From the NCBI GenBank assembly GCA_024685005.1, contig JAIKWF010000048.1:5470-69469 (forward strand): DNA of 64,000 nucleotides, in the 5' to 3' direction. A program made the translations under genes and the position numbers. The notes under the pieces are model-generated. The model saw nothing but the letters and a program-made list of their open reading frames with translations, was not told where the DNA came from and ran no database searches. Positions 7,115 to 55,026 of this stretch are shown here, one piece after another (position 1 is the stretch's first letter; each line of letters opens with the position of its first letter). The DNA is from Lachnospiraceae bacterium (GTDB taxonomy: Bacteria > Bacillota > Clostridia > Lachnospirales > Lachnospiraceae).

Positions 7115-7279
7115 ATGATCGATCTTATCATCGGAGCCGTTTTAGCAGTTTTGTTCATCGCGGCATGCATCACTGTTTTTCGGAATAAAAAAAAGGGCAG
7201 CCCATGTTGTGGCTGCCCCATGACAGGAAACTGTCAAAAGAAAAACGAACGATCAATCTGTGATTCCCGTGACCTTTGA
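7115..7279 (+). CDS. FeoB-associated Cys-rich small membrane protein family (54 aa)
   Basis: Not in the ORF track. RBS AGGAGA lies 6 nt upstream of the ATG. Product MIDLIIGAVLAVLFIAACITVFRNKKKGSPCCGCPMTGNCQKKNERSICDSRDL has one TM helix, a basic patch and a CCGC...C...C tail, the layout of that family. Its 3' end overlaps the convergent ECF gene by 27 nt. Confidence 0.6.
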   Translation: MIDLIIGAVLAVLFIAACITVFRNKKKGSPCCGCPMTGNCQKKNERSICDSRDL

Positions 7280-7823: not shown

Positions 7824-7872
7824 TCTGGATATGCGAAATAACCAGAATGGGAGAAAATGATATAACCAGATG
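7824..7872. promoter_or_regulatory. ATAACCAGA repeat set in the ECF-S / MocR divergent region (candidate MocR operator)
   Basis: ATAACCAGA occurs at 7838-7846 and 7862-7870 (24-bp period); the second copy overlaps the MocR ATG. An inverted, imperfect copy TCTGGATAT lies at 7824-7832. Confidence 0.35.
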
Positions 7873-8970
7873 AATTACAGGATTGATAAAAAAAGCCAGA
7901 CACCGGCTTATATACAGCTATATCGCTATTTTGTTTCCGATATAGAATCCGGTGTGTACCCTTACGGCAGCAAGATTCCTTCCAAACGGAATATTGCCGA
8001 GGAAACAGGGGTGAGTGTGATCACCGCAGAGCATGCGGTGGAGCTTTTAAATGAAGAAGGCTATGTGCAAAACAGACAGCGAAGCGGCGTTTTTGTGATC
8101 TATAAGGGAGAAGATTTTCTCACGGAATCCGTAAAAGAAGAGATCGTTGAAAAGGAGAATGACAGGGAAACTGAACCGGTCACACAGACCAAAGGAGAAT
8201 TTCCTTTTTCCGTTCTTGCCAAAACCATGCGGAAAGTTTTGCTTGATTACGGTGATGATATTCTGATAAAATCACCTAATCATGGGTGTGCACTTCTGAG
8301 GGAAGAGATCTGTCACTATCTGGCAAGAAGCCGGGGCATTGTGATACGGCCTTCCCAGGTGATCATCGGTTCCGGTGCGGAGTATCTTTACGGCCTCATC
8401 GCCCAGCTTTTGGGAGCGGGTCAGACCATTGCCATAGAGGATCCTTCCTATGGAAAGATCCGGGATGTTTACCGGGCCATGGATATTTCCTGTGATCTGC
8501 TAAGCCTTGGAGCCGACGGTATTCCCGCAGGGGAGCTTGCGCGTACGAGGGCAAAGGTCTTGCACGTTACGCCCTTTAACAGCTTTCCTTCCGGCGTTAC
8601 CGCAACCATTTCCAAGAAAAACGAATACATCAGGTGGGCCAAAAAACGGGATGGTATTCTCATAGAAGATAATTATGATTCGGAGCTTACCGTATCCAGA
8701 AGGATCGAACAACCTCTGTTTTCCATGGATCCGGAGGTAAAAGTGATCTACCTGAACACCTTTTCAAGGACACTGGCGCCTTCCATGAGAATCGGATACA
8801 TGATCCTGCCTCCGTCCCTGGAGGCGGCGTTTAATGAAAAGCTGGGATTTTATTCCTGTACTGTGCCCATATTTGATCAGTATGTTCTGGCAAAACTTTT
8901 GAAAAACGGAGACTTTGAGAGACACATCAATAGGATCCGGAGAAAGAGAAGAGAAAGGAAAAAACTATGA
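7870..8970 (+). CDS. MocR/GntR-family regulator (wHTH plus aminotransferase-like domain), atypical
   Basis: N-terminal GntR wHTH (KIPSKRNIAEETGVSVITAEHAVELLNEEGYV) and a fold-type-I aminotransferase-like domain (IEDPSYGK, IEDNYDSEL, LNTFSRTLAPSMRIGYMILP). Only 366 aa, and the usual SFSK lysine is Arg. Confidence 0.8.
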   Translation: MNYRIDKKSQTPAYIQLYRYFVSDIESGVYPYGSKIPSKRNIAEETGVSVITAEHAVELLNEEGYVQNRQRSGVFVIYKGEDFLTESVKEEIVEKENDRETEPVTQTKGEFPFSVLAKTMRKVLLDYGDDILIKSPNHGCALLREEICHYLARSRGIVIRPSQVIIGSGAEYLYGLIAQLLGAGQTIAIEDPSYGKIRDVYRAMDISCDLLSLGADGIPAGELARTRAKVLHVTPFNSFPSGVTATISKKNEYIRWAKKRDGILIEDNYDSELTVSRRIEQPLFSMDPEVKVIYLNTFSRTLAPSMRIGYMILPPSLEAAFNEKLGFYSCTVPIFDQYVLAKLLKNGDFERHINRIRRKRRERKKL

Positions 8971-9893
8971 CACTGAATCAGCTAAAATATGCCATTGCCA
9001 TATCCAAAGAGAATTCTTTAAATGATGCGGCAAAAAAACTGTTTATCTCGCAGCCATCCCTTACAGGTGCCATGCATGCCTTAGAGGATGAGCTGGGATT
9101 TGATATTTTTATCCGTTCCAAAACAGGTATTTCCCTGACGGTAAAGGGAGCGGAGTTTTTGGGCTATGCCAGATCCGTGGTGGAGCAGTATGACATTCTC
9201 GATACAAAATACATTTCCAAGACCAACATCAAGCGTCAGTTTAGCGTATCCATGCAGCATTACTCTTTCGCGGTAAAAGCGTTTATGGAAGTGGTAAAAA
9301 AATACGGCTACGATGATTATGAGTTTGAGGTCCATGAAACCAAGACCCATGAGATCATTGACAATGTGAAAAACCAGAAAAGTGAGATCGGTGTGCTGTA
9401 TCAGAATGATTTTAACAAAAAGGTTCTGGGCAAAGTGCTGTCGGAAGCAGGCCTTGCGTTTACCCCGCTATTCGACTGCCATATCTATGTTTACATCAGT
9501 AAGAAGAATCCCCTGGCGGCGGAAAAGCTCAAAAGCGGAGAGCCCATTTTGATGGAAGAACTGGATGAATATCCATGCCTGACCTTTGATCAGGGACAGT
9601 ATAACTCGGCGTACTATGCGGAAGAGGTGCTCAGCACCCATATGTACAAACAGACCATCCGGGTCAGTGACAGAGCCACCATGCTGAATCTGATCAAGGA
9701 AGTAAACGGATATACCCTTTGCTCCGGAATCCTGTGCGGGGATCTGAACGGTAAAGACTACTGCGGCATTAAGCTTGAAACGGATGAGACCATGACCATC
9801 GGTTACATCACAAGGAAAGATGCCATTATCAGTGAGATCGGTAAAAAATACATCGATGCACTGACCAAGTATAAGAAGATGGTGCTGGATTAA
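8967..9893 (+). CDS. LysR-family transcriptional regulator (candidate MetR/MtaR-like)
   Basis: N-terminal HTH LNDAAKKLFISQPSLTGAMHALEDELGFDIFIRSKTGISLTVKGAEFL plus a LysR substrate-binding domain. The start overlaps the MocR stop (ATGA). Sits directly upstream of the first Met-box promoter. Confidence 0.85.
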   Translation: MTLNQLKYAIAISKENSLNDAAKKLFISQPSLTGAMHALEDELGFDIFIRSKTGISLTVKGAEFLGYARSVVEQYDILDTKYISKTNIKRQFSVSMQHYSFAVKAFMEVVKKYGYDDYEFEVHETKTHEIIDNVKNQKSEIGVLYQNDFNKKVLGKVLSEAGLAFTPLFDCHIYVYISKKNPLAAEKLKSGEPILMEELDEYPCLTFDQGQYNSAYYAEEVLSTHMYKQTIRVSDRATMLNLIKEVNGYTLCSGILCGDLNGKDYCGIKLETDETMTIGYITRKDAIISEIGKKYIDALTKYKKMVLD

Positions 9894-9945
9894 ATACGGA
9901 TCAGACAGAAAGCGAAAAAAGCAAAGCTTACAAGAAGTGGCAGGT

Positions 9946-10013
9946 TATAGATTTTGGCTATAACCTGCCATAATTTTTACGCATTAGACAGTAAGCCGGG
10001 GAGATAGTATGAT
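9946..10013 (+). promoter_or_regulatory. Met-box-like palindrome plus sigma-A-type promoter P1 (mccB/mccA-like operon)
   Basis: 17-mer TATAGATTTTGGCTATA (9946-9962), inside a perfect 12-bp-arm hairpin GGCAGGTTATAG/CTATAACCTGCC. Then 22 nt, -35 TAGACA (9985-9990), a 17-nt spacer and -10 TATGAT (10008-10013). Confidence 0.6.
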
Positions 10014-10084
10014 CACTGATGTAAAGAACAACAATTGCAGCATAAAAGCAGACAAACAAAGTATGAAAGGAAGGAGGCACGAAA

Positions 10085-10216
10085 ATGATGACAGTATGCA
10101 GAATGGCGGCGGAGAACAATATGCGATGTATGACACGGATTATATTCCCGGCGATTTACACGGAACAGGCCACATCTGCAGGATGTTTGTGCCTTATTAA
10201 AATGCAGCCATTATAA
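10085..10216 (+). CDS. candidate Met/Cys-rich leader peptide (43 aa)
   Basis: AAGGAGG lies 7 nt upstream of ATG 10085. Product MMTVCRMAAENNMRCMTRIIFPAIYTEQATSAGCLCLIKMQPL has 6 Met and 4 Cys, 8 of them in the first 16 codons. The frame differs from the track ORF 10009-10200. Confidence 0.45.
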   Translation: MMTVCRMAAENNMRCMTRIIFPAIYTEQATSAGCLCLIKMQPL

Positions 10217-10245
10217 CAGTCTTTGCATTTAAAGATCCGGTAAAG

Positions 10246-10280
10246 AAGCGCGGGAAAAGTTAGCCCGGGCTTATTTTTTT
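10246..10280 (+). terminator. leader terminator / attenuator upstream of the mccB-like gene
   Basis: Arms AAGCGCGGG and CCCGGGCTT (8 of 9 pairs), a 9-nt loop, then ATTTTTTT. Lies 44 nt upstream of ATG 10324 and 30 nt downstream of the leader-ORF stop. Confidence 0.55.
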
Positions 10281-10323
10281 ATATAAATAAAACACCCAAA
10301 ATACAAAACAGGAGGAAAAAACA

Positions 10324-11490
10324 ATGGGAGATTTTAAGAATGAACTGTCTATCGATTCAGTGCTGATCCACGGCGGGATAGACGGAGACGAAACAACGGG
10401 AGCGGTAAGCGTTCCTGTGTATCAGACATCAACTTACAAACAGGACGGACTGGGAAAGGATAGAGGATGGGAGTACTCCAGAACCGGCAACCCAACAAGA
10501 GCGGCTCTGGAAAAACTCATCGCCGATCTGGAGCAGGGATCCTACGGGCTGGCATTTGCTTCTGGCCTGGCCGCCATCAATACGGTGCTTTCCCTGTTCA
10601 AAAGCGGTGATAAACTGGTGGTCTCCGACAATATTTACGGCGGGACCTTCCGGATCCTGGATAACGTATTTAACAACTTCGGAATCACCTACGAGATCGT
10701 TGATACATCAGATCTGGCAGCTGTGGAAGCAGCCATTACGGATGAAGTAAAAGCTGTTTATGTGGAAAGCCCCGCCAATCCGCTCCTTACGGTAACGGAT
10801 ATCGAAGCGGTGGCAAAGATCACGAAAAAGACAGGGAAGTTGCTGATCGTGGATAACACCTTCCTGACCCCTTATCTGCAAAGACCTTTGACACTGGGGG
10901 CGGATATCGTGATCCACAGCGGTACCAAGTATCTGGGGGGGCATTCGGACACCATCTCCGGCTTTGTGGTGGTAGATGACAAGGCCCTGGCAGACAGACT
11001 GTACTATCTGCAAAATGCCATCGGCGGCGTTCTGGCACCCTGGGACAGCTTCCTCGTGATCCGTGGGATCAAGACTCTGGGAGTCCGCATGGACCGTCAT
11101 GTGGAGAATGCGAAAAAGATCGCAGAATGGTTAGCAGCAAGCAACTATGTTTCAAAGGTATATTATCCGGGCCTGAAATCTGATCCCGGGTATGAGACAC
11201 AGAAAAAGCAGGCTGACGGACCGGGAGCAATGATCTCCTTTGTACTGGATCAAAAGTATGATCATCGTAAGTTCTTCGAATCTCTTCATCTGGTGACACT
11301 GGCAGAGAGCCTAGGAGGCGTAGAGTCTCTGGTATGCCATCCTGCATCCATGACCCATGCAGCCATTCCGAAGGATGTGCGGGAAAAAGTGGGCATTGTG
11401 GATGAACTGATCCGCCTTTCTGTAGGCATTGAGAATGCAGAGGATCTGATCAAAGACCTCGAGCAGGCAATCAAGGCATCAGCAAGGTAA
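10324..11490 (+). CDS. Cys/Met-metabolism PLP enzyme (cystathionine gamma-lyase / beta-lyase / gamma-synthase family, MccB/MetC-like)
   Basis: 388 aa. Motifs VYQTSTY, NPTRAALE and PLP-lysine HSGTKYLGGHSD. RBS AGGAGG. Confidence 0.85.
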   Translation: MGDFKNELSIDSVLIHGGIDGDETTGAVSVPVYQTSTYKQDGLGKDRGWEYSRTGNPTRAALEKLIADLEQGSYGLAFASGLAAINTVLSLFKSGDKLVVSDNIYGGTFRILDNVFNNFGITYEIVDTSDLAAVEAAITDEVKAVYVESPANPLLTVTDIEAVAKITKKTGKLLIVDNTFLTPYLQRPLTLGADIVIHSGTKYLGGHSDTISGFVVVDDKALADRLYYLQNAIGGVLAPWDSFLVIRGIKTLGVRMDRHVENAKKIAEWLAASNYVSKVYYPGLKSDPGYETQKKQADGPGAMISFVLDQKYDHRKFFESLHLVTLAESLGGVESLVCHPASMTHAAIPKDVREKVGIVDELIRLSVGIENAEDLIKDLEQAIKASAR

Positions 11491-11510
11491 GAGAGGAAAG
11501 AGAAAGGAGC

Positions 11511-12434
11511 GTGATGAGAATGGATGTATATATGGACATCCACGAGATGATCGGAAACACACCGGTGATCAAACTGAATCATGTCGAGAAAAAAAATAAG
11601 AATGTCAATATTTTTGCAAAGCTGGAGCTGATGAATCCCGCCGGCAGCGTAAAGGACAGGGTAGGTGACTACATGATCAGGGACGCAGAGGAGCGGGGAA
11701 TCTTAAAGCCCGGCGGCACCATTGTGGATGCCACGGCGGGAAATACCGGTATCGGAATTGCTCTGGCGGCACTGAATAAAGGATACAGGATCATTTTCAC
11801 CGTACCTTTAAAGTTCTCCGTGGAAAAACAAAAGATCATGAAGGCACTCGGGGCAGAGATCGTCCATACCCCGAGAGAAGAGGGAATGCTTGGCGCCGAC
11901 AGGAAGGCGGATGAGATCATAGCCTCCATACCGGGAGCCATTTCCCTCAAGCAGTTTGATAATCCGGCCAACCCAAGGGCTCACTACGAGACAACAGGTC
12001 CTGAGATCTGGCGGCAGCTTGACGGAAAGGTGCACTATTTTGTGGCAGGCGCCGGCAGCGGCGGAACTTTTTCCGGAACGGTAAAGTATCTGAAAGAACA
12101 AAACCCCGATATAAAAGGGGTACTGGCTGATCCCGTAGGTTCCATCATAGGCGGCGGCGAGCATGCGGATTACGATATCGAAGGGATTGGCAATGATTTT
12201 ATTGCTGCCACCATGGATGTAAGCCTAGTGGATACGGTGGTTAAGGTCACCGATGATGAAGCCTTTGAAGCGGTAAAAACCCTGGCTAAAACCGAGGGGA
12301 TCATCGCAGGCTCTTCCTCCGGTGCGGCTCTTGCGGCAGCGCTGAAGCTGGCAGAGCAGATCGATCACGGAAATATAGTCGTGGTGTTCCCCGACAGAGG
12401 TGATCGCTATATCAGCAAAGGTCTGCTTGACTAA
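11511..12434 (+). CDS. cysteine synthase / O-acetylserine-dependent cystathionine beta-synthase family (CysK/MccA-like)
   Basis: Motifs GNTPVIKLN, PLP-lysine NPAGSVKDR, GNTGIGIA, GAGSGGTFSG. The start is uncertain: in-frame ATGs at 11514 and 11520 sit better relative to the GGAG at 11506-11509. Confidence 0.85.
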   Translation: MMRMDVYMDIHEMIGNTPVIKLNHVEKKNKNVNIFAKLELMNPAGSVKDRVGDYMIRDAEERGILKPGGTIVDATAGNTGIGIALAALNKGYRIIFTVPLKFSVEKQKIMKALGAEIVHTPREEGMLGADRKADEIIASIPGAISLKQFDNPANPRAHYETTGPEIWRQLDGKVHYFVAGAGSGGTFSGTVKYLKEQNPDIKGVLADPVGSIIGGGEHADYDIEGIGNDFIAATMDVSLVDTVVKVTDDEAFEAVKTLAKTEGIIAGSSSGAALAAALKLAEQIDHGNIVVVFPDRGDRYISKGLLD

Positions 12435-12477: not shown

Positions 12478-12545
12478 TATAGGCTTTGCCTATAGGCCTT
12501 CATTATTTTTTGGTATTAGACAGGACAAAAGGGTTGAAATATGAT
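12478..12545 (+). promoter_or_regulatory. Met-box-like palindrome plus promoter P2 (nitrogenase-like operon)
   Basis: TATAGGCTTTGCCTATA (12478-12494), -35 TAGACA (12517-12522), 17-nt spacer, -10 TATGAT (12540-12545). Indexing was checked against the track ORF that starts at 12486. Confidence 0.6.
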
Positions 12546-12629
12546 GAGCTGGTAGCGGTTTGCCAGGCAAATTCGCTGACGGGGGGCAGGATGTGTTCGG
12601 TCCCCAACAAAAAACAGGAGGAAAAAACA

Positions 12630-14147
12630 ATGTCAAACATTAATCTGTCTCTTCCGGCTGTAGAGATCCGGGAGGTTCGAACCAGATCAGTTACAGGTTA
12701 TGACGGGAAAGCCGGAGAACTGGTGCAGAAAGCGCACGACGGTTCTCTTCGGGACGTGGAACGTTCTTTTCAGCAATGCGCCGGCTGCTCCATTACCAAG
12801 GCAGCCTGTATGACAGTACTGATCCAGGATGCGGCGGTGATCGAACACGGACCGGTGGGATGCTCCACCTGCCTGCAGGAATATAACTTTACCTATGCGG
12901 TAAACGCCGATTTAAGAGGCGTATCAAACCCCACAAGGCGCAGGATCTTTTCCACCAATCTGCAGGAAAAGGATACGGTTTACGGCGGACTGCGGAAGCT
13001 GGAAAAAACCATCCGCAGCGTATACGAGCGTACAAAGCCAAACGCCATCTTCGTGCTTTCCACCTGTGCCGCAGCCATTATAGGCGATGATATTGAAAGC
13101 GCCTGCGAAGAAGCAGAGGATGAGCTGGGAATTCCGGTGGTATCCATTGTCTGCGAAGGCTTCCGCTCCCGGGTGTGGACCACGGGATTTGATGCGGCTT
13201 ATCACGGCATTGCCAGAAAGCTCATCGATCCGCCGAAGGAAAAACGAAAGGACCTGATCAACGTGATCAATTTCTGGGGAAGCGATCGTTTTACAGACTG
13301 GTTTGCGCCCTTCGGATGCAAACCCAAATACATCACTCCTTTTTCCACAGTGAACGATCTTCGCAGCGCTTCCGAATCGGCAGCAACCATTCAGGCCTGC
13401 TCTACTCTGGGAAGTTATCTGGCGGCTGTTTTGGAAAAAGAGTTTGACGTGCCGGAGATCGAAACGGCACCGCCCTACGGGATTGCCCAGACAGACCGGT
13501 GGTTCAGAGCACTGGGAAAGATCCTGGGAAAAGAAGAGATCGCAGAGCAGGTCATCGCCGAAAAGAAGGAAAAATACCTGGGCAGGATCGCTCAGCTGAG
13601 AGAAAAGCTGCAGGGAAAGACAGCATACGTTACCGGCGGAGCTGCCCACGGACACGCACTTTTGTCTGTGCTGGGAGAGCTGGGGATCAATGCGGTGGGA
13701 GCTTCCATTTTCCATCATGATTCGGTGTTTGATTCCGGACGGGATGAAAACGATCAGCTGATGCAGAGAGTGGGGGATTACGGCGATGTGAGAAATTACA
13801 GGGTCTGCTCCAAGCAGGAGTATGAGTTGGCTAACTCCCTGGGGAAACTTCATCCGGATATTTTGCTTTCCAGACACGGGGGCATGACACTGTGGGGAGC
13901 CAAGTACGGAATCCCGTCCCTTCTGGTGGGAGATGAACATTACAGCATGGGTTATGAGGGAATCATTGATTACGGAGAGAGAATTCTGGATACCATTGAG
14001 AATGATGAGTTTGTAAAGAATCTGCAAAAGCATGCCATCAATCCCTATACAAAGTGGTGGCTGATGCAAAGACCGGATTACTTCTTTGAGACATCGGATA
14101 AAAAAGAAAAAGGAAAGGAGGAAAGTCAAAATGCCGGCATTGAATGA
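12630..14147 (+). CDS. nitrogenase-like component 1, NifD/NifE-like alpha subunit
   Basis: Start at MSNINLSL (ATG 12630, RBS AGGAGG), not the track start 12486. Motifs CAGCS, IEHGPVGC and STCAAAIIGDDIE match the P-cluster Cys positions of NifD. IQACSTLGSY and GDEHYSMGY resemble the Cys275 and His442 regions. Confidence 0.85.
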   Translation: MSNINLSLPAVEIREVRTRSVTGYDGKAGELVQKAHDGSLRDVERSFQQCAGCSITKAACMTVLIQDAAVIEHGPVGCSTCLQEYNFTYAVNADLRGVSNPTRRRIFSTNLQEKDTVYGGLRKLEKTIRSVYERTKPNAIFVLSTCAAAIIGDDIESACEEAEDELGIPVVSIVCEGFRSRVWTTGFDAAYHGIARKLIDPPKEKRKDLINVINFWGSDRFTDWFAPFGCKPKYITPFSTVNDLRSASESAATIQACSTLGSYLAAVLEKEFDVPEIETAPPYGIAQTDRWFRALGKILGKEEIAEQVIAEKKEKYLGRIAQLREKLQGKTAYVTGGAAHGHALLSVLGELGINAVGASIFHHDSVFDSGRDENDQLMQRVGDYGDVRNYRVCSKQEYELANSLGKLHPDILLSRHGGMTLWGAKYGIPSLLVGDEHYSMGYEGIIDYGERILDTIENDEFVKNLQKHAINPYTKWWLMQRPDYFFETSDKKEKGKEESQNAGIE

Positions 14148-15477
14148 AATGATAGAACAGCCCAGGTTTTCCTGTGCCATCGGCGCACTGCAAAGCGTAG
14201 TTGCCATTCCCAGAGCGGTACCCATTCTGCATTCCGGACCGGGATGCGGGGACATGGTTTCGGGCTTTTTTGAACGAAGCAAGGGATATGCCGGAGGCGA
14301 TACCTCCCCCTGTACCAATTTTAACGAAAAAGATGTGGTATTCGGCGGATCGGAGAAGCTCAGGAAGATCATCAAAAATACATACAAGGTGCTGGATACG
14401 GATCTGCAGGTGGTTCTGACAGGCTGTACAGGCGGTATCGTAGGTGATGATATCGAAAGCGTGGTACAGGAATTTCAGGATGCGGGAAAACCCATTGTAT
14501 CTGTTGATACGCCGGGTTTTAAATGCAATAACTACGTATCCCATTCCCATGTGGTAAAGGCCATCATCGATCAGTATGTTTCCCTGTATGAGGAGGACAA
14601 TAAAACCCGCAGTGACAGGAAACTGGTCAATCTTTTTGCAAGCATTCCCTATCAGGATCCTTTCTGGAAAGGGAATCTGCGGGAGTATAAGCGCCTGCTG
14701 GAAGGCCTGGGTCTGAAGGTCAATGTATTGTTCGGACCTGACAGCGGAGGCGTTACGGAGTGGCAAACCATACCGAAGGCGAACTTTAATATTCTGGTAT
14801 CGCCCTGGTACGGTAAGCCCATTACGGATCATTTAAAGCGCCTTTACGGACAGGAAACCTATTGGTTCCATTCCGTCCCCATCGGTGCCAATGAAACGGA
14901 AAAATTCCTGGAAGGAGTTTTGGATTTTGCCGCTTTGCAAAAAGCAGACATTGACCGAAAGAAGGCGGAAGCCTTTATCAAACACGAGACTGACCGCTAC
15001 TATGAGGAGATCGATAATCTGGCCACTTTCCTTCTGGAATTTAGATACGGCCTACCCCGCTACGCCCACATCCTGCATGATGCGGGATATGTGGTGGGAA
15101 TGTCCAAGTTTCTACTGCATGAAACCGGCGTTGTACCGAAGGAAGTATTTGTAGTGGACAACACACCGGAGAAATATCGGGAACAGATTGAAAAAGATCT
15201 GGCCTCCACCAGTGACAAACGGACCATCCCCGTTTTCTTTGAAGCAGATGCGGGAGAAGCCCAGGAAACCATCAAACAGGCAGATCACAAAGGAAGAGGC
15301 ATTATTTTAGGTTCCGGCTGGGATAAGTCCCTGGCAAAGGAAAAGAATTGTGATTTTCTTTCCGTGGCAGTGCCCAGTCCCGTGCGTCTGGTACTGACAA
15401 CCAATTATGTGGGATTTTCCGGTGGACTTAGGCTGATCGAGGATATTTACCAGACAGCGCTTCATACTTACGGATGA
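14131..15477 (+). CDS. nitrogenase-like component 1, NifK/NifN-like beta subunit
   Basis: Start at MPALNEMIEQ (ATG 14131, RBS AGGAGG), overlapping the alpha-subunit stop by 17 nt. Motifs FSCAIGAL, LHSGPGCG and LTGCTGGIVGDDIE match the NifK Cys70/95/153 positions. No long N-terminal extension. Confidence 0.85.
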   Translation: MPALNEMIEQPRFSCAIGALQSVVAIPRAVPILHSGPGCGDMVSGFFERSKGYAGGDTSPCTNFNEKDVVFGGSEKLRKIIKNTYKVLDTDLQVVLTGCTGGIVGDDIESVVQEFQDAGKPIVSVDTPGFKCNNYVSHSHVVKAIIDQYVSLYEEDNKTRSDRKLVNLFASIPYQDPFWKGNLREYKRLLEGLGLKVNVLFGPDSGGVTEWQTIPKANFNILVSPWYGKPITDHLKRLYGQETYWFHSVPIGANETEKFLEGVLDFAALQKADIDRKKAEAFIKHETDRYYEEIDNLATFLLEFRYGLPRYAHILHDAGYVVGMSKFLLHETGVVPKEVFVVDNTPEKYREQIEKDLASTSDKRTIPVFFEADAGEAQETIKQADHKGRGIILGSGWDKSLAKEKNCDFLSVAVPSPVRLVLTTNYVGFSGGLRLIEDIYQTALHTYG

Positions 15478-15842
15478 TGGAGAAACACAAAGAAAGATCT
15501 GACGGGAGCACAGCCATGAGAATAGGATTTGCAAGCACGGACGGGATCAGCGTCAACGAGCACTTCGGCCATGCAAAGTATTGGGAGATTTATGAACTGA
15601 ACAAAGAGGCGGAGTTTGTGGAAACCAGAATGGTACGGGCAGGATGCAGCTGCCACGATCCCGGCGTGTTTGATGAAATGCTTTCCCTTCTATCTGATTG
15701 CAGTGCCCTTGTGGTATCCCGGATCGGAGAAGGGGCAGCAGCTTATGTTACGGGAAAAGGAAAGAGAGTGTTTGAAGCAGCCGGATATATCGAACAGCTG
15801 GCAGAGATCTTGTATGAAAAGTTAGCGGAGGAGAACAATTGA
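15474..15842 (+). CDS. NifX/NafY/NifB-C-terminal-domain-like cofactor-binding protein
   Basis: MRIGFASTDGISVNEHFGHAKYWEIYEL is the signature N-terminus of the dinitrogenase FeMo-cofactor-binding family. ATGA overlap with the beta-subunit stop. An alternative start is ATG 15516. Confidence 0.75.
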   Translation: MMEKHKERSDGSTAMRIGFASTDGISVNEHFGHAKYWEIYELNKEAEFVETRMVRAGCSCHDPGVFDEMLSLLSDCSALVVSRIGEGAAAYVTGKGKRVFEAAGYIEQLAEILYEKLAEENN

Positions 15843-16714
15843 GTATTTCACCACAGGAACTGAGACAGCGCCATCCCTGTTTTGCGCTGGGAGAAAAAAC
15901 AAACAGCGGCAGGATTCATTTGCCGGTGAGCTTCGGATGCAACATCGGCTGCAATTTTTGCATACGGGATCTGAATGAAACGGAAAACAGACCCGGAGTT
16001 GCCGGTGACATCCTTACGCCAAAAGAAGCCCTGGAGGCCGTAGGCCGGGCGGTGGAAGCCATGCCTCAGATACAGGTGGCCGGCGTGGCCGGACCGGGAG
16101 ATACCCTGGCAAGTCCCCATGCGCTGGAGACGTTTCGCCTGATTAAGGAAAGGTATCCGAAGCTGATCAAGTGCATGAGTACCAACGGACTGATGCTTTC
16201 AAAGCTGGCAGATCAGGTGATAGAAGCGGGCATTGATACGCTTACCGTAACGGTAAATGCAGTGGACGAAGAGATCCTTGCACAGATCAACAGCTTTGTG
16301 ATCTGGGAAGGGAAAAAATACGAAGGGATACAGGCGGCAAAGATCCTCATCGAAAATCAGCTTTCAGGCATTGAAAAGGTTGTTAAGGGAGGCGTTACGG
16401 TAAAGGTCAATACCGTACTGATCCCCCAACTGAATCAGGAGCATATCGGGAAGATCGCCAAAACCGTGGCAGAGCGGGGGGCGTCGATCTATAACATCAT
16501 CCCTCTGATCCCACAGCATAAGCTGAAAAACATGAGAGAACCTTCCTGCGAAGAACTTTACAGCGCAAGGGCGGAGGCAGAGAAGTATATCAGGGTATTC
16601 CGGCATTGTCAAAGGTGCCGGGCCGATGCGGCAGGCATCCCGGGCGGAAGGGATATTTCCAAACAGATCTATCTGAAAGAGATCCGGGCGGAGAACACCT
16701 TTTCACATGGATGA
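15839..16714 (+). CDS. radical SAM protein, minimal NifB-like
   Basis: 291 aa. HPCF then CNIGCNFC (CX3CX2C), followed by NETENRPGV and GVAGPGD as in NifB. TTG start overlaps the preceding stop by 4 nt. No fused NifX domain. Confidence 0.8.
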   Translation: MSISPQELRQRHPCFALGEKTNSGRIHLPVSFGCNIGCNFCIRDLNETENRPGVAGDILTPKEALEAVGRAVEAMPQIQVAGVAGPGDTLASPHALETFRLIKERYPKLIKCMSTNGLMLSKLADQVIEAGIDTLTVTVNAVDEEILAQINSFVIWEGKKYEGIQAAKILIENQLSGIEKVVKGGVTVKVNTVLIPQLNQEHIGKIAKTVAERGASIYNIIPLIPQHKLKNMREPSCEELYSARAEAEKYIRVFRHCQRCRADAAGIPGGRDISKQIYLKEIRAENTFSHG

Positions 16715-16743
16715 TCATTGATAAAAAAGAAAGATACAAGTAG

Positions 16744-17610
<867 letters not shown>

Positions 17611-17616: not shown

Positions 17617-17684
17617 CATAGGCAAAACCTATAACCGATGATAAACAATAGGAATTAGACAGCGTGGGTTTCATGCCTTAAGAT
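17617..17684 (+). promoter_or_regulatory. Met-box-like palindrome plus promoter P3 (AhpD-like / yezD / metNIQ unit)
   Basis: CATAGGCAAAACCTATA (17617-17633), starting 7 nt after the NifH-like stop. -35 TAGACA (17656-17661), 17-nt spacer, -10 TAAGAT (17679-17684). Confidence 0.55.
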
Positions 17685-17722: not shown

Positions 17723-18277
17723 ATGGCAAGAGTAAAATTATTGGAACTGGAAGAAACAACCGGAGCGGAGAAAGAACGCTACGAAGAACTGGCCGGCAGA
17801 AATGCAGTCACAAATATGAAACGGGGACTTTTAAATGATGCGGCCACATATGATGCATACATGGCATGGTACACTTCGTGGAAACGCCTGGTGGAAGTCA
17901 TCGGTGAAAAAGATGCGGTCCTTTACGCACATGCAATTTCAACCACCAATTCCTGCCAGCTGTGCTCACTGTTTTTCATCAGCGACGTAAAAGGTCTGGG
18001 ACTTGACCCGGCAAACCTTCAGTACGATGAAAAAGAAACAGCACTGACAGATCTGGGAAGAGCAATCGTTAAGAATCCCACAGCTGTATCCGACGAGCTT
18101 TTCGATACGCTGAAGAAATTCTGGAATGATCAGGAGATCGTGGTGATCGTAGGATTCGCAGGTCAGATGATCGCAACCAACAACTTCAACTCTGTATTGA
18201 AGATTGACGTGGACCAGAGACTTCTTCCCATCATTGATGAGTTTAAGCCGGCTACATGGAGAGAGAATATCAAGTAA
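17723..18277 (+). CDS. carboxymuconolactone decarboxylase / AhpD-like family protein with CxxC
   Basis: 184 aa, all-helical. HAISTTNSCQLCSLFF carries the AhpD-type CxxC motif. Strong RBS AAGGAGG. Confidence 0.7.
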   Translation: MARVKLLELEETTGAEKERYEELAGRNAVTNMKRGLLNDAATYDAYMAWYTSWKRLVEVIGEKDAVLYAHAISTTNSCQLCSLFFISDVKGLGLDPANLQYDEKETALTDLGRAIVKNPTAVSDELFDTLKKFWNDQEIVVIVGFAGQMIATNNFNSVLKIDVDQRLLPIIDEFKPATWRENIK

Positions 18278-18578: not shown

Positions 18579-19634
18579 ATGATCAAATTGGAAAATCTGG
18601 AAAAAACCTATCATACGGATGCAGGGGATGTCCACGCCCTTTCAAATGTATCCCTTACGATCCCGAAGGGGAGTGTTTACGGGATCGTGGGAGCCAGCGG
18701 CGCGGGGAAAAGTACCCTGATCAGAAGCATCAATCTTTTGGAAAAACCGGACGCAGGAAAGGTGTTTATAGACGGAGAGAATATCACACTTTTATCCGGA
18801 AAAAGTCTGGAACAAAAGAGACAAAAGATCGGAATGATCTTCCAGCATTTTAACCTGCTCAAATCCAAAACGGTATATGAAAATATTGCGTTTCCTCTGA
18901 AATACCGCAAGGAAAAACCAAAAGAAATCGAAAAGCGGGTAGACGCACTTTTAAAGCTGGTAGATCTGGAAGATAAGAAGGGTTCTTACCCTTCCCAGCT
19001 GTCCGGGGGCCAGAAGCAACGGGTTGCCATCGCAAGAGCTCTTGCCAATGATCCGAATATTCTTCTTTGTGATGAAGCAACATCCGCTCTGGACCCTCAA
19101 ACGACAGCTTCCATTCTGACTCTTTTGCGGAATCTGAATGAGAAACTGGGGATCACGGTGGTTTTGATCACGCACCAGATGTCGGTAGTAAAAGAAATCT
19201 GCGACAGGGTGGCTGTGGTGGAAGCCGGACAGATTGTGGAAGAGGCCCAGACTTATGAATTGTTTGCCAATCCGCAGAAAGAGATCACAAAACGCTTTGT
19301 GGATACGGTCTTTCATAATGATGACGTGGAAAGACTTTTGGAACAGGATGATCTGCAAAAGAGGCTTAGCCGGGGAGAAGAGATCTGGCATCTGGTATTT
19401 CGGGGAGAAGGCGCAAATCATGCCTACATTGCAGAGCTGATCCGCAAATTTTACCTTGACATCAGCGTGATCTACGGCTCCATTGAGATCATACAAAATA
19501 AACCCATCGGAAACCTTTATGTTTCCATCGGCGGCAATGACGGGTGCCTGCGGGGGGCACTGGGATATCTGAGAAGGGAAGGGATCAGCACCGAGCCCCT
19601 TCTTCTGAAAGAAACGGAGGAGGCCATCGGATGA
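18579..19634 (+). CDS. metN: methionine ABC transporter ATP-binding protein
   Basis: Walker [10 protein letters not shown], signature [15 protein letters not shown], Walker [12 protein letters not shown], and a C-terminal NIL-type domain. Confidence 0.9.
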
Positions 19635-20311
19635 AAGAATTATTGATACGCTATTTACCCAATGTATTTGAGCTGCAGGACTATTTCCTGCAATCCATAA
19701 AGGAAACCGCCATCATGGTGCTGATCACCGGTGCCATCGGCCTGAGTCTTGGAGTGATCACCGGCATCATACTGGTGGTGACAGACAAAGGCGGGCTGTA
19801 TGAAAACAGTACGGTTCACAGTCTTCTAGGCAGGGTGATCAACGTGGTAAGGTCCATTCCCTTTGTGATCCTCATAGCTTTGATGGTAACCTTTACCAGA
19901 TTCCTGGTGGGGACCGCCATCGGCGTAAAGGGTGCCATCGTTCCCATGGTGGTGGGAGTGATCCCGCTGGCATCAAGACTGACGGAGCAGGCACTTTTGG
20001 AAACGGACCCCGGTGTTCTGGAGGCGGGAAGATCCATGGGAATTTCCAGAGGATATCTGATCCGCCATGTGATGATACCGGAAGCGCTGCCGGGACTGAT
20101 CCGGGCAGTTGTCACCTGCTTTATCAGCCTCATCGGCCTGACGGCTATGGCAGGCAGCGTGGGAGGCGGCGGCATCGGAAGCTTCGCCATCAGGTACGGT
20201 TATAACCGGTACATGGAAGATGTAACCATTGTATGTGTGCTCTTTTTGCTCATTCTGGTCAGTATCATTCAAAGCCTGGGCAACAGGGCTGCAGATAGAT
20301 TAACACATTAA
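19631..20311 (+). CDS. metI: methionine ABC transporter permease
   Basis: Start at MKELLIRY (ATG 19631, ATGA overlap with metN). MetI-type BPD permease with GSVGGGGIGSFAIRYGY near the C-terminus. Confidence 0.9.
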   Translation: MKELLIRYLPNVFELQDYFLQSIKETAIMVLITGAIGLSLGVITGIILVVTDKGGLYENSTVHSLLGRVINVVRSIPFVILIALMVTFTRFLVGTAIGVKGAIVPMVVGVIPLASRLTEQALLETDPGVLEAGRSMGISRGYLIRHVMIPEALPGLIRAVVTCFISLIGLTAMAGSVGGGGIGSFAIRYGYNRYMEDVTIVCVLFLLILVSIIQSLGNRAADRLTH

Positions 20312-20344
20312 GTTTTTTGTTTTACAAAAGGAGGAGTAACTATT

Positions 20345-21343
20345 ATGAAAAAGATCGTATTTAACAAAAAGGCAGCTGCCATCATAGCTGCGGCAGCACT
20401 ATTGGTAACCGGATGCGGACAGAGCGCATCTACCGGCGGAGGCGACAGCAAGGAGGCAGCAGAGCCGGAAGCAGTGGAAACACAGGATGTTGAAGCGAGC
20501 GAAGAAACTTCGGAAGCAGATGCACAGGATACGCAGGATGCCGGAGAAGACGCAGAGGCTGAATCTGCAGAGGAAAAACAGGGGATCAAATCAGAGGACG
20601 GTCAGCCCATCATCGTAAAGATCGGTACAACCTCCGACGAGAACCGGATCTGGGATGCACTGAATGAAGAACTGGCAGAAAGAGGAGATGATATCAAGGT
20701 AGAATGGGTAAACGTACAGCAGACCAATCAGGTCCTTGCAGACGGTGAAGTGGATCTGAACTCTTTTCAGCATTATGCATACTTTGATGCCAACACCGCG
20801 GATCTGGGACTGGATCTGACGGCCATCGGAGAAACCCTGATCGTACCCTTAAACCTGTTTTCCGAAAAACATGCATCCTTAGATGAGATCCCCGAGGGCG
20901 GTTCCATTGCCATCCCTGAGGATGCCACCAATCAGGGAAGAGCTTTGCATGTACTGGAAAATGCGGGTCTGATCAAGCTGGCTGAGGGCGTAGGCGTAAA
21001 CGGAACGGTTTCCGATATAGCGGAGAATCCCAAGAATATCAAGATCGTTGAAATGGAAGGACCTGAGCTTCCCAGAACTCTGGCAGATGTGGATGCGGCC
21101 ATCATCAACTGCGGATATGCTACCGATTACGGTCTGGATCCCGTAAACGATCCCATCTATAAAGACGAGATTGACTTTACGGATCCTGCGCAGCATCCCT
21201 TCATCAACATCATTGCAGCCCGCACCGAAGACAAGGACAACGAAGTATATCTCGAGGTAGTGGATGCGTACAGAACAGAGCGTGTGGCAAAGGCTATTTT
21301 GGAAGTTTACAACAACGCGGCAATCCCCGCATTTGAGTATTAG
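20345..21343 (+). CDS. metQ: MetQ/NlpA-family substrate-binding lipoprotein
   Basis: Lipobox LLVTGCGQ, an acidic Glu/Asp/Ala-rich linker, then the NlpA-type domain (NSFQHYAYF, INCGYA). Confidence 0.85.
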   Translation: MKKIVFNKKAAAIIAAAALLVTGCGQSASTGGGDSKEAAEPEAVETQDVEASEETSEADAQDTQDAGEDAEAESAEEKQGIKSEDGQPIIVKIGTTSDENRIWDALNEELAERGDDIKVEWVNVQQTNQVLADGEVDLNSFQHYAYFDANTADLGLDLTAIGETLIVPLNLFSEKHASLDEIPEGGSIAIPEDATNQGRALHVLENAGLIKLAEGVGVNGTVSDIAENPKNIKIVEMEGPELPRTLADVDAAIINCGYATDYGLDPVNDPIYKDEIDFTDPAQHPFINIIAARTEDKDNEVYLEVVDAYRTERVAKAILEVYNNAAIPAFEY

Positions 21344-21386
21344 TAGTTAGCGGTTGCTAACAAAAATTCGGAAGGAAGCACAGAGG

Positions 21387-22535
21387 ATGACAGAGATTAC
21401 AGAGCAGCAAAAAGAGGAAATGATCGCCCTGCGGCGCTGGTTTCATGCCCATCCGGAGATCTGCTTTGAGGAGCATGAAACAGCCGCAAAGATCAGAGAA
21501 GAGCTGGACAAACTGGATATACCCTGGCAGAGCGTGGGAACCGGAACGGTGGCTGTCATAGAAGGGAAAAAGGAAGGAGCAGTGATTGGCCTTCGGGCCG
21601 ATATAGATGCGCTTCGGATCACCGAGAAAAACGAGGTTTCCTACCGATCACAAAACGAAGGCGCGATGCACGCCTGCGGACATGATGCTCATACGGCAGC
21701 CCTTTTGGGGGCTGCCCGTATTTTAAAAGAGCAGCAGGATCAGCTGGAAGGTACGGTGAAGCTGATCTTCCAGCCCGCTGAAGAGATCGGAAGGGGGGCA
21801 CAGACCATAGTGGATTCCGGGCTGATCGATGATGTGAACTTCTTTTTTGGGATCCATGTAAGAAGCCTTGAAGAAGTGGGGCTTATGGAAATATCAAAAG
21901 GAGCTGTCATGGGAGGCGCCAATTCACTGAAGATTTTTCTGCAGGGGAAAAGTGCACACGGTGGAAGACCGCATCTTGGAATCGATACCATTACATGCGG
22001 CGCCCAGATCGTACAGGGATTGCAGAATGTGGTATCCAGAGAAATATCCGCCCATGAATCCGCAGTGATCTCGGTGGGAATGTTTCACGGCGGAACGGCC
22101 GAGAATATTGTGGCAGGAGAGACCACCATCAAGGGAACCATCAGAGTCCTCTCCGACACTGTCAGAGAGCAGATCGCAGATGCGGCGGTGCGGCTTGTGA
22201 AGGGAATTGCGGCTGCTAACCGGGTTTCTGTGAAAGTGGAAAGTGAATTTGAAACACCCATTCTGAAAAATTCGGAGCTGCTGTATGATACCGTAAAGCA
22301 AGCGGGCATTCAGGTAGCAGGGGCCGAAAAGATCATACCGGCCCAGCCGGATCTGGGAACGGAGGATTTTTCCGCATACAGTCAGATCGCCCCATCCTTC
22401 TTCGTATTTGTGGGTGCCGGCGGATCCTATCCCCATCATCATGAACGGTTCGATCTGGACGAAAATGTGCTGCCCATAGCAGCAGCAATGCATGTGGCAT
22501 TTGTATCGCAGTGCAGTAAAATAAAGGCTTCTTAA
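21387..22535 (+). CDS. M20-family amidohydrolase (N-acyl-amino-acid deacylase / hippurate hydrolase type)
   Basis: HAHPEICFEEHET, MHACGHDAHTA and GGTAENIV motifs. Start set at ATG 21387; the track TTG 21354 is possible. Confidence 0.8.
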   Translation: MTEITEQQKEEMIALRRWFHAHPEICFEEHETAAKIREELDKLDIPWQSVGTGTVAVIEGKKEGAVIGLRADIDALRITEKNEVSYRSQNEGAMHACGHDAHTAALLGAARILKEQQDQLEGTVKLIFQPAEEIGRGAQTIVDSGLIDDVNFFFGIHVRSLEEVGLMEISKGAVMGGANSLKIFLQGKSAHGGRPHLGIDTITCGAQIVQGLQNVVSREISAHESAVISVGMFHGGTAENIVAGETTIKGTIRVLSDTVREQIADAAVRLVKGIAAANRVSVKVESEFETPILKNSELLYDTVKQAGIQVAGAEKIIPAQPDLGTEDFSAYSQIAPSFFVFVGAGGSYPHHHERFDLDENVLPIAAAMHVAFVSQCSKIKAS

Positions 22536-22546: not shown

Positions 22547-22614
22547 TATAGGTTTTACCTATAGCAGCCTATAATTCTTATGTATTTGTCAGGGAACCCA
22601 TCCTGTTTTATAGT
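22547..22614 (+). promoter_or_regulatory. Met-box-like palindrome plus promoter P4 (second metQ)
   Basis: TATAGGTTTTACCTATA (22547-22563), -35 TTGTCA (22586-22591), 17-nt spacer, -10 TATAGT (22609-22614). Indexing was checked against the track ORF that starts at 22580. Confidence 0.6.
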
Positions 22615-54997: not shown

Positions 54998-55026
54998 TTG
55001 CTACCGTACCGGTATTGTGCTACACT
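54998..55026 (+). promoter_or_regulatory. candidate promoter of the MFS gene
   Basis: -35 TTGCTA (54998-55003), 17-nt spacer, -10 TACACT preceded by TGc (55018-55026). Confidence 0.35.

What the first reader, a model, noticed from the sequence alone, without database searches (positions are those of the whole stretch)
10020..10323. Met/Cys-rich leader peptide followed by a terminator: possible ribosome-mediated attenuation of the mccB/mccA-like operon
Seen in the sequence:
- Promoter P1 leaves an untranslated leader of about 300 nt.
- The leader contains an ORF (10085-10216) with a near-perfect RBS (AAGGAGG, 7-nt spacing).
- Its product is MMTVCRMAAENNMRCMTRIIFPAIYTEQATSAGCLCLIKMQPL, in which 10 of 43 residues are Met or Cys and 8 of those fall in the first 16 codons.
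- Thirty nt after its stop lies a hairpin (AAGCGCGGG / CCCGGGCTT) followed by ATTTTTTT, just before the structural gene.
- A segment inside the ORF (TTCCCGGCGATTT, about 10143-10155) is largely complementary to the left arm of that hairpin and could act as an anti-terminator.
- I could not find S-box, T-box or other known riboswitch cores here.

Inference: translation stalling at Met/Cys codons when charged tRNAs are scarce would favour read-through. That would be a second control layer on top of the Met-box activator. Leader-peptide attenuation keyed to sulfur amino acids is rarely documented in Firmicutes.
Basis: partly seen in the sequence, partly recalled or inferred. Interest (0 to 1): 0.7.

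Follow-up and report, generated by a model that had tools for sequence, protein, structure and literature searches.

The report
Cysteine-codon leader peptide attenuator upstream of mccB
The short gene and hairpin in front of this sulfur amino-acid operon belong to an apparently undescribed family of ribosome-sensed transcription "brakes" in rumen Lachnospiraceae; relatives carry runs of 2-6 cysteine codons, while this copy is an atypical, cysteine-poor and methionine-enriched member.

Summary
A Shine-Dalgarno site (GAAGGAGG) lies 7 nt before a 43-codon ORF (10085-10216). A terminator (10246-10272 plus T7) starts 29 nt after its stop. The ORF segment 10145-10164 pairs with 10236-10256, which takes in the terminator's 5' arm.

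The deciding evidence is comparative. Seventeen leaders from relatives, all upstream of mccB genes 78-90% identical, have the same layout. Each has an SD, a 24-46 codon ORF with 2-6 tandem Cys codons, a terminator 23-59 nt after the stop, and an antiterminator strand shortly after the Cys run. A profile built from nine of them finds only this leader in the window (E = 9e-5). No Rfam family matches.

This is therefore a classical leader-peptide transcription attenuator, keyed in the family to cysteinyl-tRNA. It controls mccB-mccA beneath a LysR-box promoter.

The window copy is the outlier. It has single Cys codons (C5, C15), Met where the others have their second Cys, and the weakest terminator. 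Whether it senses Cys, Met, both, or is decaying remains open.

The mechanism is textbook. A terminator-based Cys attenuator in Firmicutes was not found in the literature I could search. I rate it a new member of a known kind, of moderate interest.

The parts
9937..9971 (+). Context: 14-bp palindrome that holds a TATAG-N7-CTATA box (9946-9962). It looks like a LysR-type (Met-box-like) operator and may also terminate the upstream LysR gene.
   Evidence: six boxes in the window against 0.78 expected. The box is conserved in L141, L146 and L001.
9985..10013 (+). Promoter-like site, (T)TAGACA-17-TATGAT. The transcript would start near 10020.
   Evidence: The same ATTAGACAG...GTATnAT is conserved in L141, L146 and L001.
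10070..10077 (+). Shine-Dalgarno sequence GAAGGAGG of the leader ORF, 7 nt before the ATG.
   Evidence: SD-like sequences precede the sORF in the relatives.
10085..10216 (+). Leader-peptide ORF of 43 codons. Candidate sensing codons are C5 (10097-10099), M7 (10103-10105), M13 (10121-10123), C15 (10127-10129) and M16 (10130-10132). A second Cys pair, C34/C36, lies at 10184-10192.
   Evidence: A profile built from nine relatives hits 10072-10221 only, E = 8.9e-5.
10097..10126 (+). Possible protector strand (region 1). In the free RNA it pairs with 10136-10179, holding the anti-terminator strand.
   Evidence: -19.3 kcal/mol, but no better than shuffles (p = 0.41). This part is tentative.
10145..10164 (+). 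Anti-terminator 5' strand (region 2), inside the ORF at codons 21-27. It includes the conserved TTCCCGGCG.
   Evidence: Homologous (T)TCCCGGC motifs occur in L141, L143 and L146.
10236..10256 (+). Anti-terminator 3' strand (region 3). It overlaps the terminator 5' arm (10246-10254).
   Evidence: -23.0 kcal/mol, z = -3.1. In one search the anti-terminator is the MFE of 10143-10280.
10246..10280 (+). Intrinsic terminator: AAGCGCGGG, a 9-nt loop, CCCGGGCTT, then ATTTTTTT.
   Evidence: -12.0 kcal/mol. An equivalent terminator is present in all 17 relatives.
10324..12434 (+). Regulated genes: an mccB-like cystathionine gamma-lyase/synthase family enzyme (10324-11490) and an mccA/cysK-like PLP enzyme (11511-12434).
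   Evidence: A hairpin with a T-run and a second box plus promoter after 12434 bound the unit.

Best explanation
The element is a ribosome-mediated (leader-peptide) transcription attenuator of the mccB-mccA operon. It sits downstream of a LysR-box promoter.

Proposed mechanism:
1. Transcription starts near 10020, and a ribosome loads at the strong SD and translates the 43-codon leader ORF.
2. If the ribosome runs through, ORF segment 10145-10164 is occupied or unwound by the ribosome, or is held afterwards by upstream RNA (10097-10126). The hairpin 10246-10272 plus T7 then forms and ends the transcript before mccB.
3. If charged tRNA is short, the ribosome stalls within codons 5-16 (Cys5, Met7, Met13, Cys15, Met16). 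Its leading edge stops just short of 10145.
4. Segment 10145-10164 then pairs with 10236-10256 as that strand emerges. This sequesters the terminator's 5' arm, and RNA polymerase reads into mccB-mccA.

What is shown and what is inferred:
- Shown by computation: the parts, their homology to a family, and the alternative pairings.
- Inferred: translation of the ORF, stalling, and the response to amino-acid supply.
- In the family the sensed amino acid is almost certainly cysteine (2-6 tandem Cys codons).
- In this window the run is reduced to one Cys flanked by Met codons. The copy may sense Cys weakly, or Cys plus Met.
For: Family architecture:
- Eighteen leaders (the window plus 17) share SD, an sORF of 24-46 aa, a terminator 23-59 nt after the stop (23-32 nt in 13), then mccB.
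- Across all 149 fetched loci, both strands, the only sORFs with at least 3 tandem Cys codons followed by a terminator are the 13 distinct ones directly upstream of mccB.

Homology of the window copy:
- C15 sits in the invariant Cys column of the peptide alignment.
- The nucleotide alignment shares the Cys-run position, TCCCGGC and GAUGU.
- An nhmmer profile built without the window hits only 10072-10221, E = 8.9e-5.

Anti-terminator:
- The best partner of the terminator 5' arm lies 4-20 nt after the Cys run in 16 of 18 leaders.
- The extended duplexes are -18 to -32 kcal/mol in 17 of 18 leaders (window -23.0, z = -3.1).
- Cognate arm and partner match better than non-cognate ones; 0 of 20,000 permutations did as well.
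- Three unrelated arm sequences (CCGGGAGC, GCGAGGAAUGA, GCGGAACC) each have a matching partner.

Switch logic:
- In nascent transcripts lacking the 3' arm, with a ribosome at the first Cys, the arm pairs into the ORF in 18 of 18 leaders.
- In the window the free leader forms the terminator (8 of 8 pairs). RNA from just after a ribosome stalled at C15 does not (0 of 8).

Other support:
- The genes belong to Cys/Met transsulfuration.
- No known RNA family matches.
Against: - The window copy has no tandem regulatory codons. It is the only one of 15 aligned peptides with Met instead of Cys at the second run position.
- Its short core duplex (-9.3 kcal/mol) is no better than shuffles (p = 0.40).
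- Its protector pairing is not significant (p = 0.41).
- Its terminator is the weakest in the family, -12 against -12.4 to -25.5 kcal/mol.
- In the relatives, equilibrium folding keeps the terminator in every modelled ribosome state. Anti-termination there has to be kinetic.
- The sequences are related to one another, so the counts and permutation tests overstate independence.
- A sister lineage (L001/L013/L061) has deleted the sORF altogether, which shows the element is dispensable.
- There is no expression, ribosome-profiling or reporter evidence.
Confidence: 0.65

Rival explanations
1. The window copy is a decaying relic of the family attenuator. The ORF, terminator and anti-terminator survive, but loss of the Cys run means it no longer reports cysteine supply. 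It would act as a fixed partial terminator, or respond only to general translation rate, with the LysR-type regulator doing the real regulation.
For: - It is the only member without tandem Cys.
- It has the weakest terminator.
- Its core duplex and protector pairing are no better than shuffles.
- The related lineage L001/L013/L061, with the same box and promoter, has deleted the sORF.
- Another relative, L147, has no leader at all.
Against: - The ORF is intact, is the same length as L146's (43 codons), and keeps a near-consensus SD.
- The extended anti-terminator is strong and significant.
- The free/stalled switch is cleaner in the window than in any relative.
- Cys-to-Met needs two or three base changes per codon, and the result is the most Met+Cys-rich small ORF in 64 kb. 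That is not what random decay would be expected to produce.
Confidence: 0.2
2. The switch is driven by an unrecognised metabolite- or protein-binding leader RNA and does not depend on translation. The ORF would then be incidental to the RNA structure.
For: - The anti-terminator/terminator pair alone would suit a riboswitch-like or protein-controlled attenuator.
- Some conserved nucleotides (CGAUGU near the stop, CAUUCCAU before the terminator in L140, L141, L143 and L146) have no assigned role.
Against: - No Rfam family matches the window or the 18 relatives' loci.
- There is no conserved aptamer-like domain. Between sub-groups the leaders share little sequence apart from the Cys codon run, the ORF frame and the pairing logic.
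- Runs of up to six in-frame Cys codons after an SD and ATG are not explained by an RNA-only model.
Confidence: 0.07
3. The small ORF encodes a functional Cys-rich peptide, such as a metal- or redox-active peptide or a RiPP precursor. The hairpin would simply be its terminator.
For: - One homologue (L140, 41 aa) was called as a gene in a public annotation.
- A C-terminal Cys-x-Cys or Arg-Cys motif recurs.
Against: - Peptide identity to the window is only 9-24%, and only the Cys columns are conserved.
- Length varies from 24 to 46 aa.
- There is no Pfam or NCBIfam match.
- No maturase or transporter is nearby.
- The ORF always lies between a promoter and mccB, with pairing to the terminator.
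Confidence: 0.03

Closest known systems
Classical leader-peptide attenuators of enterobacterial amino-acid operons (trpL, hisL, thrL, pheL, ilv leaders)
   Same: - An SD-preceded short ORF carries codons for the pathway's end product.
- An intrinsic terminator stands before the first structural gene.
- An anti-terminator shares a strand with the terminator.
- Ribosome position selects the fold.
- A mixed-codon leader has a precedent in thrL (Thr plus Ile), which I recall from general knowledge.
   Different: - The phylum is Firmicutes (Lachnospiraceae), the amino acid is Cys, and there is no sequence relationship.
- The ORF is longer (24-46 codons) and runs through the anti-terminator 5' strand, ending about 25-30 nt before the terminator.
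- A significant 1:2 protector helix is seen in only some members.
- The window copy has no tandem codons.
Polycysteine leaderless sORFs of mycobacteria (Canestrari et al., bioRxiv 10.1101/834739); Cys leader ORFs predicted in Actinobacteria (Seliverstov et al. 2005, PMC1262725)
   Same: Runs of Cys codons in a short upstream ORF report cysteine supply to downstream Cys-related operons.
   Different: - Those are leaderless (no SD).
- They act on translation by unmasking the downstream SD and have no intrinsic terminator.
- Here there is an SD, a terminator with a T-run, and an anti-terminator.
uORFC-8-2 motif upstream of cysS in Rhodobacterales (Brewer et al. 2021, PMC8632094)
   Same: A predicted ribosome-mediated attenuator with two tandem Cys codons and an intrinsic terminator.
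   Different: - It occurs in Alphaproteobacteria.
- It controls the tRNA synthetase gene, not transsulfuration genes.
- Its sequence and structure are unrelated, and it is likewise only predicted.
Cys-specific T-box (with S-box antisense) control of ubiG-mccBA in Clostridium acetobutylicum, and CymR repression of mccAB in Bacillus subtilis (recalled from memory, not checked here)
   Same: The target genes are the same. The T-box also reads tRNA-Cys charging and acts by premature termination.
   Different: - A T-box binds uncharged tRNA directly.
- No T-box or S-box is detectable here.
- Here the ribosome is the sensor.
Histidine leader peptide upstream of hisS/hisZ paralogues in Bacilli (Naville & Gautheret 2010, PMC2965389)
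   Same: A 'regular' amino-acid leader peptide that replaces a T-box in Firmicutes.
   Different: The amino acid, the genes and the lineage all differ.

Membership tests
Leader-peptide (ribosome-mediated) transcription attenuator | A short ORF with a translation start signal in the 5' leader | tested here: met
   GAAGGAGG lies 7 nt before the ATG at 10085, giving a 43-codon ORF. The feature is conserved in 17 relatives.
Leader-peptide (ribosome-mediated) transcription attenuator | Clustered (usually tandem) codons for the regulating amino acid | tested here: inconclusive
   The relatives have 2-6 tandem Cys codons. The window has single C5 and C15 plus M7, M13 and M16 within codons 5-16, with no tandem pair.
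Leader-peptide (ribosome-mediated) transcription attenuator | An intrinsic terminator between the leader ORF and the first structural gene | tested here: met
   10246-10272 (-12.0 kcal/mol) followed by ATTTTTTT, 51 nt before mccB.
Leader-peptide (ribosome-mediated) transcription attenuator | An anti-terminator that is mutually exclusive with the terminator | tested here: met
   10144-10165 pairs with 10235-10256 at -23.0 kcal/mol, z = -3.1. It is the MFE of 10143-10280. Helix-level co-variation holds across the family.
Leader-peptide (ribosome-mediated) transcription attenuator | Geometry: a ribosome stalled at the sensing codons leaves the anti-terminator strand free, and a ribosome that passes them does not | tested here: met
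   With C15 in the A site (10127-10129), a footprint of about +13 nt ends near 10140-10142, and the strand starts at 10145. The strand lies inside the ORF, so a translating ribosome must cross it.
Leader-peptide (ribosome-mediated) transcription attenuator | Downstream genes act in the metabolism of the sensed amino acid | tested here: met
   A cystathionine gamma-lyase/synthase family enzyme and a cysK/cystathionine beta-synthase-like enzyme.
Leader-peptide (ribosome-mediated) transcription attenuator | Read-through responds to charged-tRNA supply and requires translation of the leader | not testable with these tools
   This needs reporter fusions, Term-seq or ribosome profiling.
T-box leader | Conserved T-box sequence, specifier loop and stem I architecture | tested here: not met
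   No Rfam T-box hit at the gathering score or at E<=10. None in the relatives.
SAM (S-box and other) riboswitches | A conserved aptamer recognised by Rfam covariance models | tested here: not met
Mycobacterial polycysteine leaderless sORF attenuators | A leaderless start, with the Cys tract pairing to the downstream SD (translational control, no terminator) | tested here: not met
   Here there is an SD-led ORF and an intrinsic terminator. The mccB SD (about 10311-10316) lies 30 nt beyond the T-run and is not part of the pairing.

The most novel reading that the evidence does not exclude
The family would be the first terminator-based, cysteine-codon leader-peptide attenuator in Firmicutes. In this window the Cys run has been partly replaced by Met codons (M13-R-C15-M16, C5-R-M7). 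The copy would then sense methionyl-tRNA as well as cysteinyl-tRNA, which I believe would be the first leader peptide keyed to methionine. It would integrate both sulfur amino acids for a transsulfuration operon, on top of a Met-box/LysR promoter.
Probability: 0.2. Interest if true: 0.7.

Novelty: new member of a known kind. Interest (0 to 1): 0.55.

Why it matters
- Sulfur amino-acid genes in Firmicutes are thought to be run by S-box and T-box RNAs and by CymR, MtaR or CmbR-type proteins. A ribosome-sensed Cys attenuator adds a further, unannotated layer in abundant rumen Lachnospiraceae.
- The family shows T-box-like logic being replaced by a leader peptide on the same target genes.
- It gives annotators a simple signature: SD, a small ORF with a Cys run, then a terminator in front of mccB.
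- It offers a natural series (6, 5, 4, 3, 2, 1 and 0 Cys codons, including a deletion) for studying how attenuators gain, tune and lose sensitivity.
- If the Met codons are functional, it would be a rare case of dual amino-acid sensing outside enterobacteria.

Tried and rejected
- **Known RNA families.** Rfam scans of the window at gathering score and at permissive E-values, and of 18 relatives' loci, gave nothing relevant. The Thr_leader hit at E = 3.4 is only the terminator hairpin.
- **Closer relatives.** The exact MccB protein is not on record. The best homologues are only 89-90% identical, so selection on the window ORF could not be measured with strain-level relatives.
- **Census of leader peptides.** A profile search of the leader-peptide alignment against 5.8 billion proteins found only 2 hits. 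Such ORFs are rarely called as genes, so no census was possible that way.
- **Other attenuators in the window.** A scan for further Cys-run sORFs with terminators found none. The ORF at 7115-7279 looks like a small membrane protein rather than a leader; this was not tested.
- **Thermodynamic switch.** Equilibrium folding with ribosome masks as proof of the switch failed for the relatives, because the terminator always wins. Only nascent-transcript folding supports the switch.
- **General 1:2 protector helix.** It is significant in only 6 of 18 leaders.
- **Alternative reading frame.** The overlapping frame 10009-10200 is not Cys-rich.
- **Functional peptide.** The sORF has no family hit.
- **More distant mccB homologues.** Loci at about 49-56% identity, including many human-gut loci, show no such leader.
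- **Prior description.** Six literature searches found no report in Firmicutes.

Full report
**What is in the window**

Position 9985-10013 carries a promoter-like site, TAGACA-17-TATGAT. It lies just downstream of a 14-bp palindrome (9937-9971) that holds a TATAG-N7-CTATA box.

The leader then contains:
- GAAGGAGG at 10070-10077;
- seven nucleotides later, an ATG that opens a 43-codon ORF (10085-10216, MMTVCRMAAENNMRCMTRIIFPAIYTEQATSAGCLCLIKMQPL);
- 29 nt after the stop, the hairpin AAGCGCGGG-N9-CCCGGGCTT (10246-10272, -12.0 kcal/mol) followed by ATTTTTTT;
- 51 nt further on, the start of a cystathionine gamma-lyase/synthase family gene (10324-11490), followed by a cysK/mccA-like gene (11511-12434).

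The peptide has 6 Met and 4 Cys. Seven of these (not eight) fall in the first 16 residues. It is the most Met+Cys-rich of the 225 ATG-ORFs of 30-60 aa in the window.

No Rfam 15 family reaches threshold in the window. A permissive scan of 9850-10400 gives only noise.

**Relatives decide the question**

I fetched loci that encode close MccB homologues from three sources: genome contigs, metagenome contigs, and contigs carrying the best database homologues. The window's own species is not represented. The best MccB identity is 90%, and the exact protein is not on record.

Seventeen leaders upstream of mccB genes that are 78-90% identical show the same architecture as the window:
- an SD-like sequence;
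- a 24-46 codon ORF;
- an intrinsic terminator (-12 to -25 kcal/mol) that starts 23-59 nt after the stop codon (23-32 nt in 13 of 18);
- then mccB.

Their peptides carry blatant runs of Cys codons. Examples:
- MFNQSMSNRICCCCCCRDNNSILRMFCKNTYEEA (L008)
- MSNIVRTTKYMCCCCCAVYDIRTYNMAGVLTCRCCSQL (L009)
- MFMRTQKTVMNIGCCCRGNSPAIHMESVRSCRCLPLLCCGYKI (L146)
- MFKQTGYTNTYTACCCLGHFPAAHMDTVQSCRCMRLTKLRP (L141)
- MYNMTTLTKMNMACCSQSISETRMEKVRSCPCMRIKRYHET (L140)
- MKTMCCRMLYQRAMDCCCLNMIRCR (L014)

As a chance control I scanned all 149 fetched loci on both strands. The only small ORFs with at least three tandem Cys codons followed by a terminator are the 13 distinct ones directly upstream of mccB.

**The window copy is a homologue, but an odd one**

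In the peptide alignment the window's C15 lies in the single invariant Cys column. The next column is Cys in all 14 other peptides and Met in the window.

At the nucleotide level the window shares three features with the family:
- the position of the Cys run;
- the motif TTCCCGGCG (compare TTTCCCGGCA, ATCCCGGCG and TCTCCGGCA);
- GAUGU near the end of the ORF.

An nhmmer profile built from nine relatives without the window finds only 10072-10221 in the 64-kb window, E = 8.9e-5.

So the window element belongs to the family. It is also the only member without tandem Cys, and it has the weakest terminator.

Met codons are enriched just before the Cys run across the family, at 20 of 170 codons against about 2.5% in the window's proteins. 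Part of this enrichment is inherited, through the conserved AAAAUGAAUAUG. It is suggestive of Met sensing but does not prove it.

**Alternative pairings**

- In 16 of 18 leaders the best partner of the terminator's 5' arm lies inside the ORF, 4-20 nt after the Cys run.
- When the search includes the nucleotides just upstream of the arm, the duplexes are -18 to -32 kcal/mol in 17 of 18 leaders. Most are significant against shuffles.
- In the window, 10144-10165 pairs with 10235-10256 at -23.0 kcal/mol (z = -3.1).
- Arm sequences differ between sub-groups (CCGGGAGC, GCGAGGAAUGA, GCGGAACC, GCCCGGAGC), and the ORF partner changes with them. Cognate pairs beat non-cognate ones in 20,000 of 20,000 permutations. 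Relatedness among the sequences inflates this figure.
- In nascent transcripts that lack the 3' arm, with a ribosome at the first Cys codon, the MFE pairs the arm into the ORF in 18 of 18 leaders.

For the window:
- The free leader folds with the terminator formed and 10145-10153 held by upstream RNA.
- RNA from 10143 onward folds into the anti-terminator even when the 3' arm is present (-37.7 kcal/mol). This is what is left when a ribosome sits on codons up to 16.
- The 10143-10258 fold has z = -3.1.

Caveats:
- In the relatives the terminator wins at equilibrium in every modelled state. The switch there must be kinetic. I recall that this is also true of the E. coli trp attenuator.
- A significant 1:2 protector helix is seen in only six leaders, and not in the window.

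**Mechanism proposed**

1. Transcription starts near 10020 and a ribosome initiates at 10085.
2. With ample charged tRNA, the ribosome crosses codons 21-27, which are the anti-terminator 5' strand, and reaches the stop 29 nt before the terminator. The 5' arm is left to pair with the 3' arm, and transcription ends at the T-run.
3. With scarce cysteinyl-tRNA (and perhaps methionyl-tRNA), the ribosome stalls within codons 5-16. Its leading edge stops just before 10145.
4. The anti-terminator then forms as 10236-10256 emerges, and polymerase continues into mccB-mccA.

The parts and pairings are shown by computation. Translation, stalling and the physiological response are inferred.

The regulated unit appears to be mccB-mccA only. 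A hairpin with a T-run follows mccA, and a second box plus promoter module begins at 12471.

**Comparison with what is known**

- The mechanism is the textbook leader-peptide attenuator.
- Cys-codon sORFs are known in mycobacteria, but they are leaderless and act on translation without a terminator.
- Cys leader ORFs without terminators were predicted in Actinobacteria.
- A tandem-Cys uORF with a terminator was predicted upstream of cysS in Rhodobacterales.
- In Firmicutes, a His leader peptide was reported as the first 'regular' example.
- Six full-text searches found no Cys or Met leader-peptide attenuator in Firmicutes, Clostridia or Lachnospiraceae.
- Rfam 15 has no model that hits these leaders.

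I therefore file it as a new member of a known kind. The window copy is a degenerate or re-tuned variant.

**Rival readings**

- *A decaying relic with no amino-acid specificity.* In favour: the lost Cys run, the weak terminator, and a sister lineage (L001/L013/L061) that deleted the sORF. Against: the intact ORF, the strong SD, the significant anti-terminator and the marked Met enrichment.
- *A translation-independent RNA or protein switch.* No aptamer-like conservation is present, and in-frame Cys runs argue against it.
- *A functional Cys-rich peptide.* Peptide conservation is poor and there are no partner genes.

**Verdict**

- It is plausible but unproven for the window's Met/Cys mix.
- Interest is moderate (0.55).

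Noticed in passing
window 9946-9962, 12478-12494, 17617-17633, 22547-22563, 32103-32119 (and 55013-55029): The box TATAG-N7-CTATA occurs six times on the + strand at up to 1 mismatch, against 0.78 expected. The first three boxes are each followed about 25-40 nt later by a TAGACA-17-TAtgAT promoter-like site. This looks like the regulon of the LysR-type regulator encoded at 8967-9893. From memory, the box resembles the streptococcal MET box.
   Followed up: partly
window 12486-17610: A nitrogenase-like gene cluster lies between mccA and the Met-transport genes, under its own box and promoter. It comprises two PF00148 component-1 genes, a Nitro_FeMo-Co small protein, a radical SAM gene and a NifH-like gene. 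It could be a sulfur-salvage reductase. From memory, it recalls the methylthio-alkane reductase of Rhodospirillum.
   Followed up: no
window 17723-18277; L140 2861-3415: A 184-aa protein with no Pfam match is 88% identical to the gene that directly follows mccA in L140. Genes of the same length follow mccA in L141, L146 and L147. In the window the nitrogenase-like cluster separates this gene from mccA.
   Followed up: partly
window 18579-22535: metN (ABC plus NIL domain), metI and metQ-like transporter genes and an M20 peptidase lie on the same strand. In L144 and L149 metN and metI follow mccA directly.
   Followed up: no
L008, L009, L010, L014, L043, L143, L144, L147, L149 (about 30-120 nt upstream of the sORF or of mccB): Lineages without the TATAG box instead have a conserved promoter embedded in an inverted repeat, ACCTATTGACATnGTAGGTAA. 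An Rrf2-family (CymR-like) regulator gene is divergently adjacent in L144 and L147. The repeat is a likely repressor operator, so the attenuator is combined with different DNA-binding regulators in different lineages.
   Followed up: no
L001 about 1000-1184, L013, L061: These relatives keep the TATAG box, the TTAGACA promoter and the terminator-like hairpin. A deletion has removed the SD, the whole leader ORF and the anti-terminator 5' strand.
   Followed up: partly
Leader ORFs of most relatives; window 10182-10187: The nucleotides CGAUGU (Arg-Cys, always the CGA codon) are conserved 0-6 codons before the sORF stop. Often the ORF ends ...Arg-Cys-stop. The window has GGAUGU. No role has been assigned.
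   Followed up: no
L140 about 300-533; L006 about 2790-2994: Some relatives have 200 nt or more between the attenuator's terminator and mccB, with repeated TTGCATAATG-like segments in L140. A further regulatory element may lie there, but there is no Rfam hit.
   Followed up: no
window 7115-7279: A 54-aa ORF has a hydrophobic N-terminus and a CCGC motif (MIDLIIGAVLAVLFIAACITVFRNKKKGSPCCGCPMTGNCQKK...). It looks like a small Cys-rich membrane protein, not a leader peptide.
   Followed up: no
window 7870-8970 and 8967-9893: A MocR/PdxR-like regulator gene overlaps the start of the LysR-type regulator gene by 4 nt (ATGA).
   Followed up: no
L146 389-553 (- strand): A Clostridiales-1 RNA (RF01699, 128.9 bits) lies about 1.5 kb upstream of the leader in this relative.
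   Followed up: no
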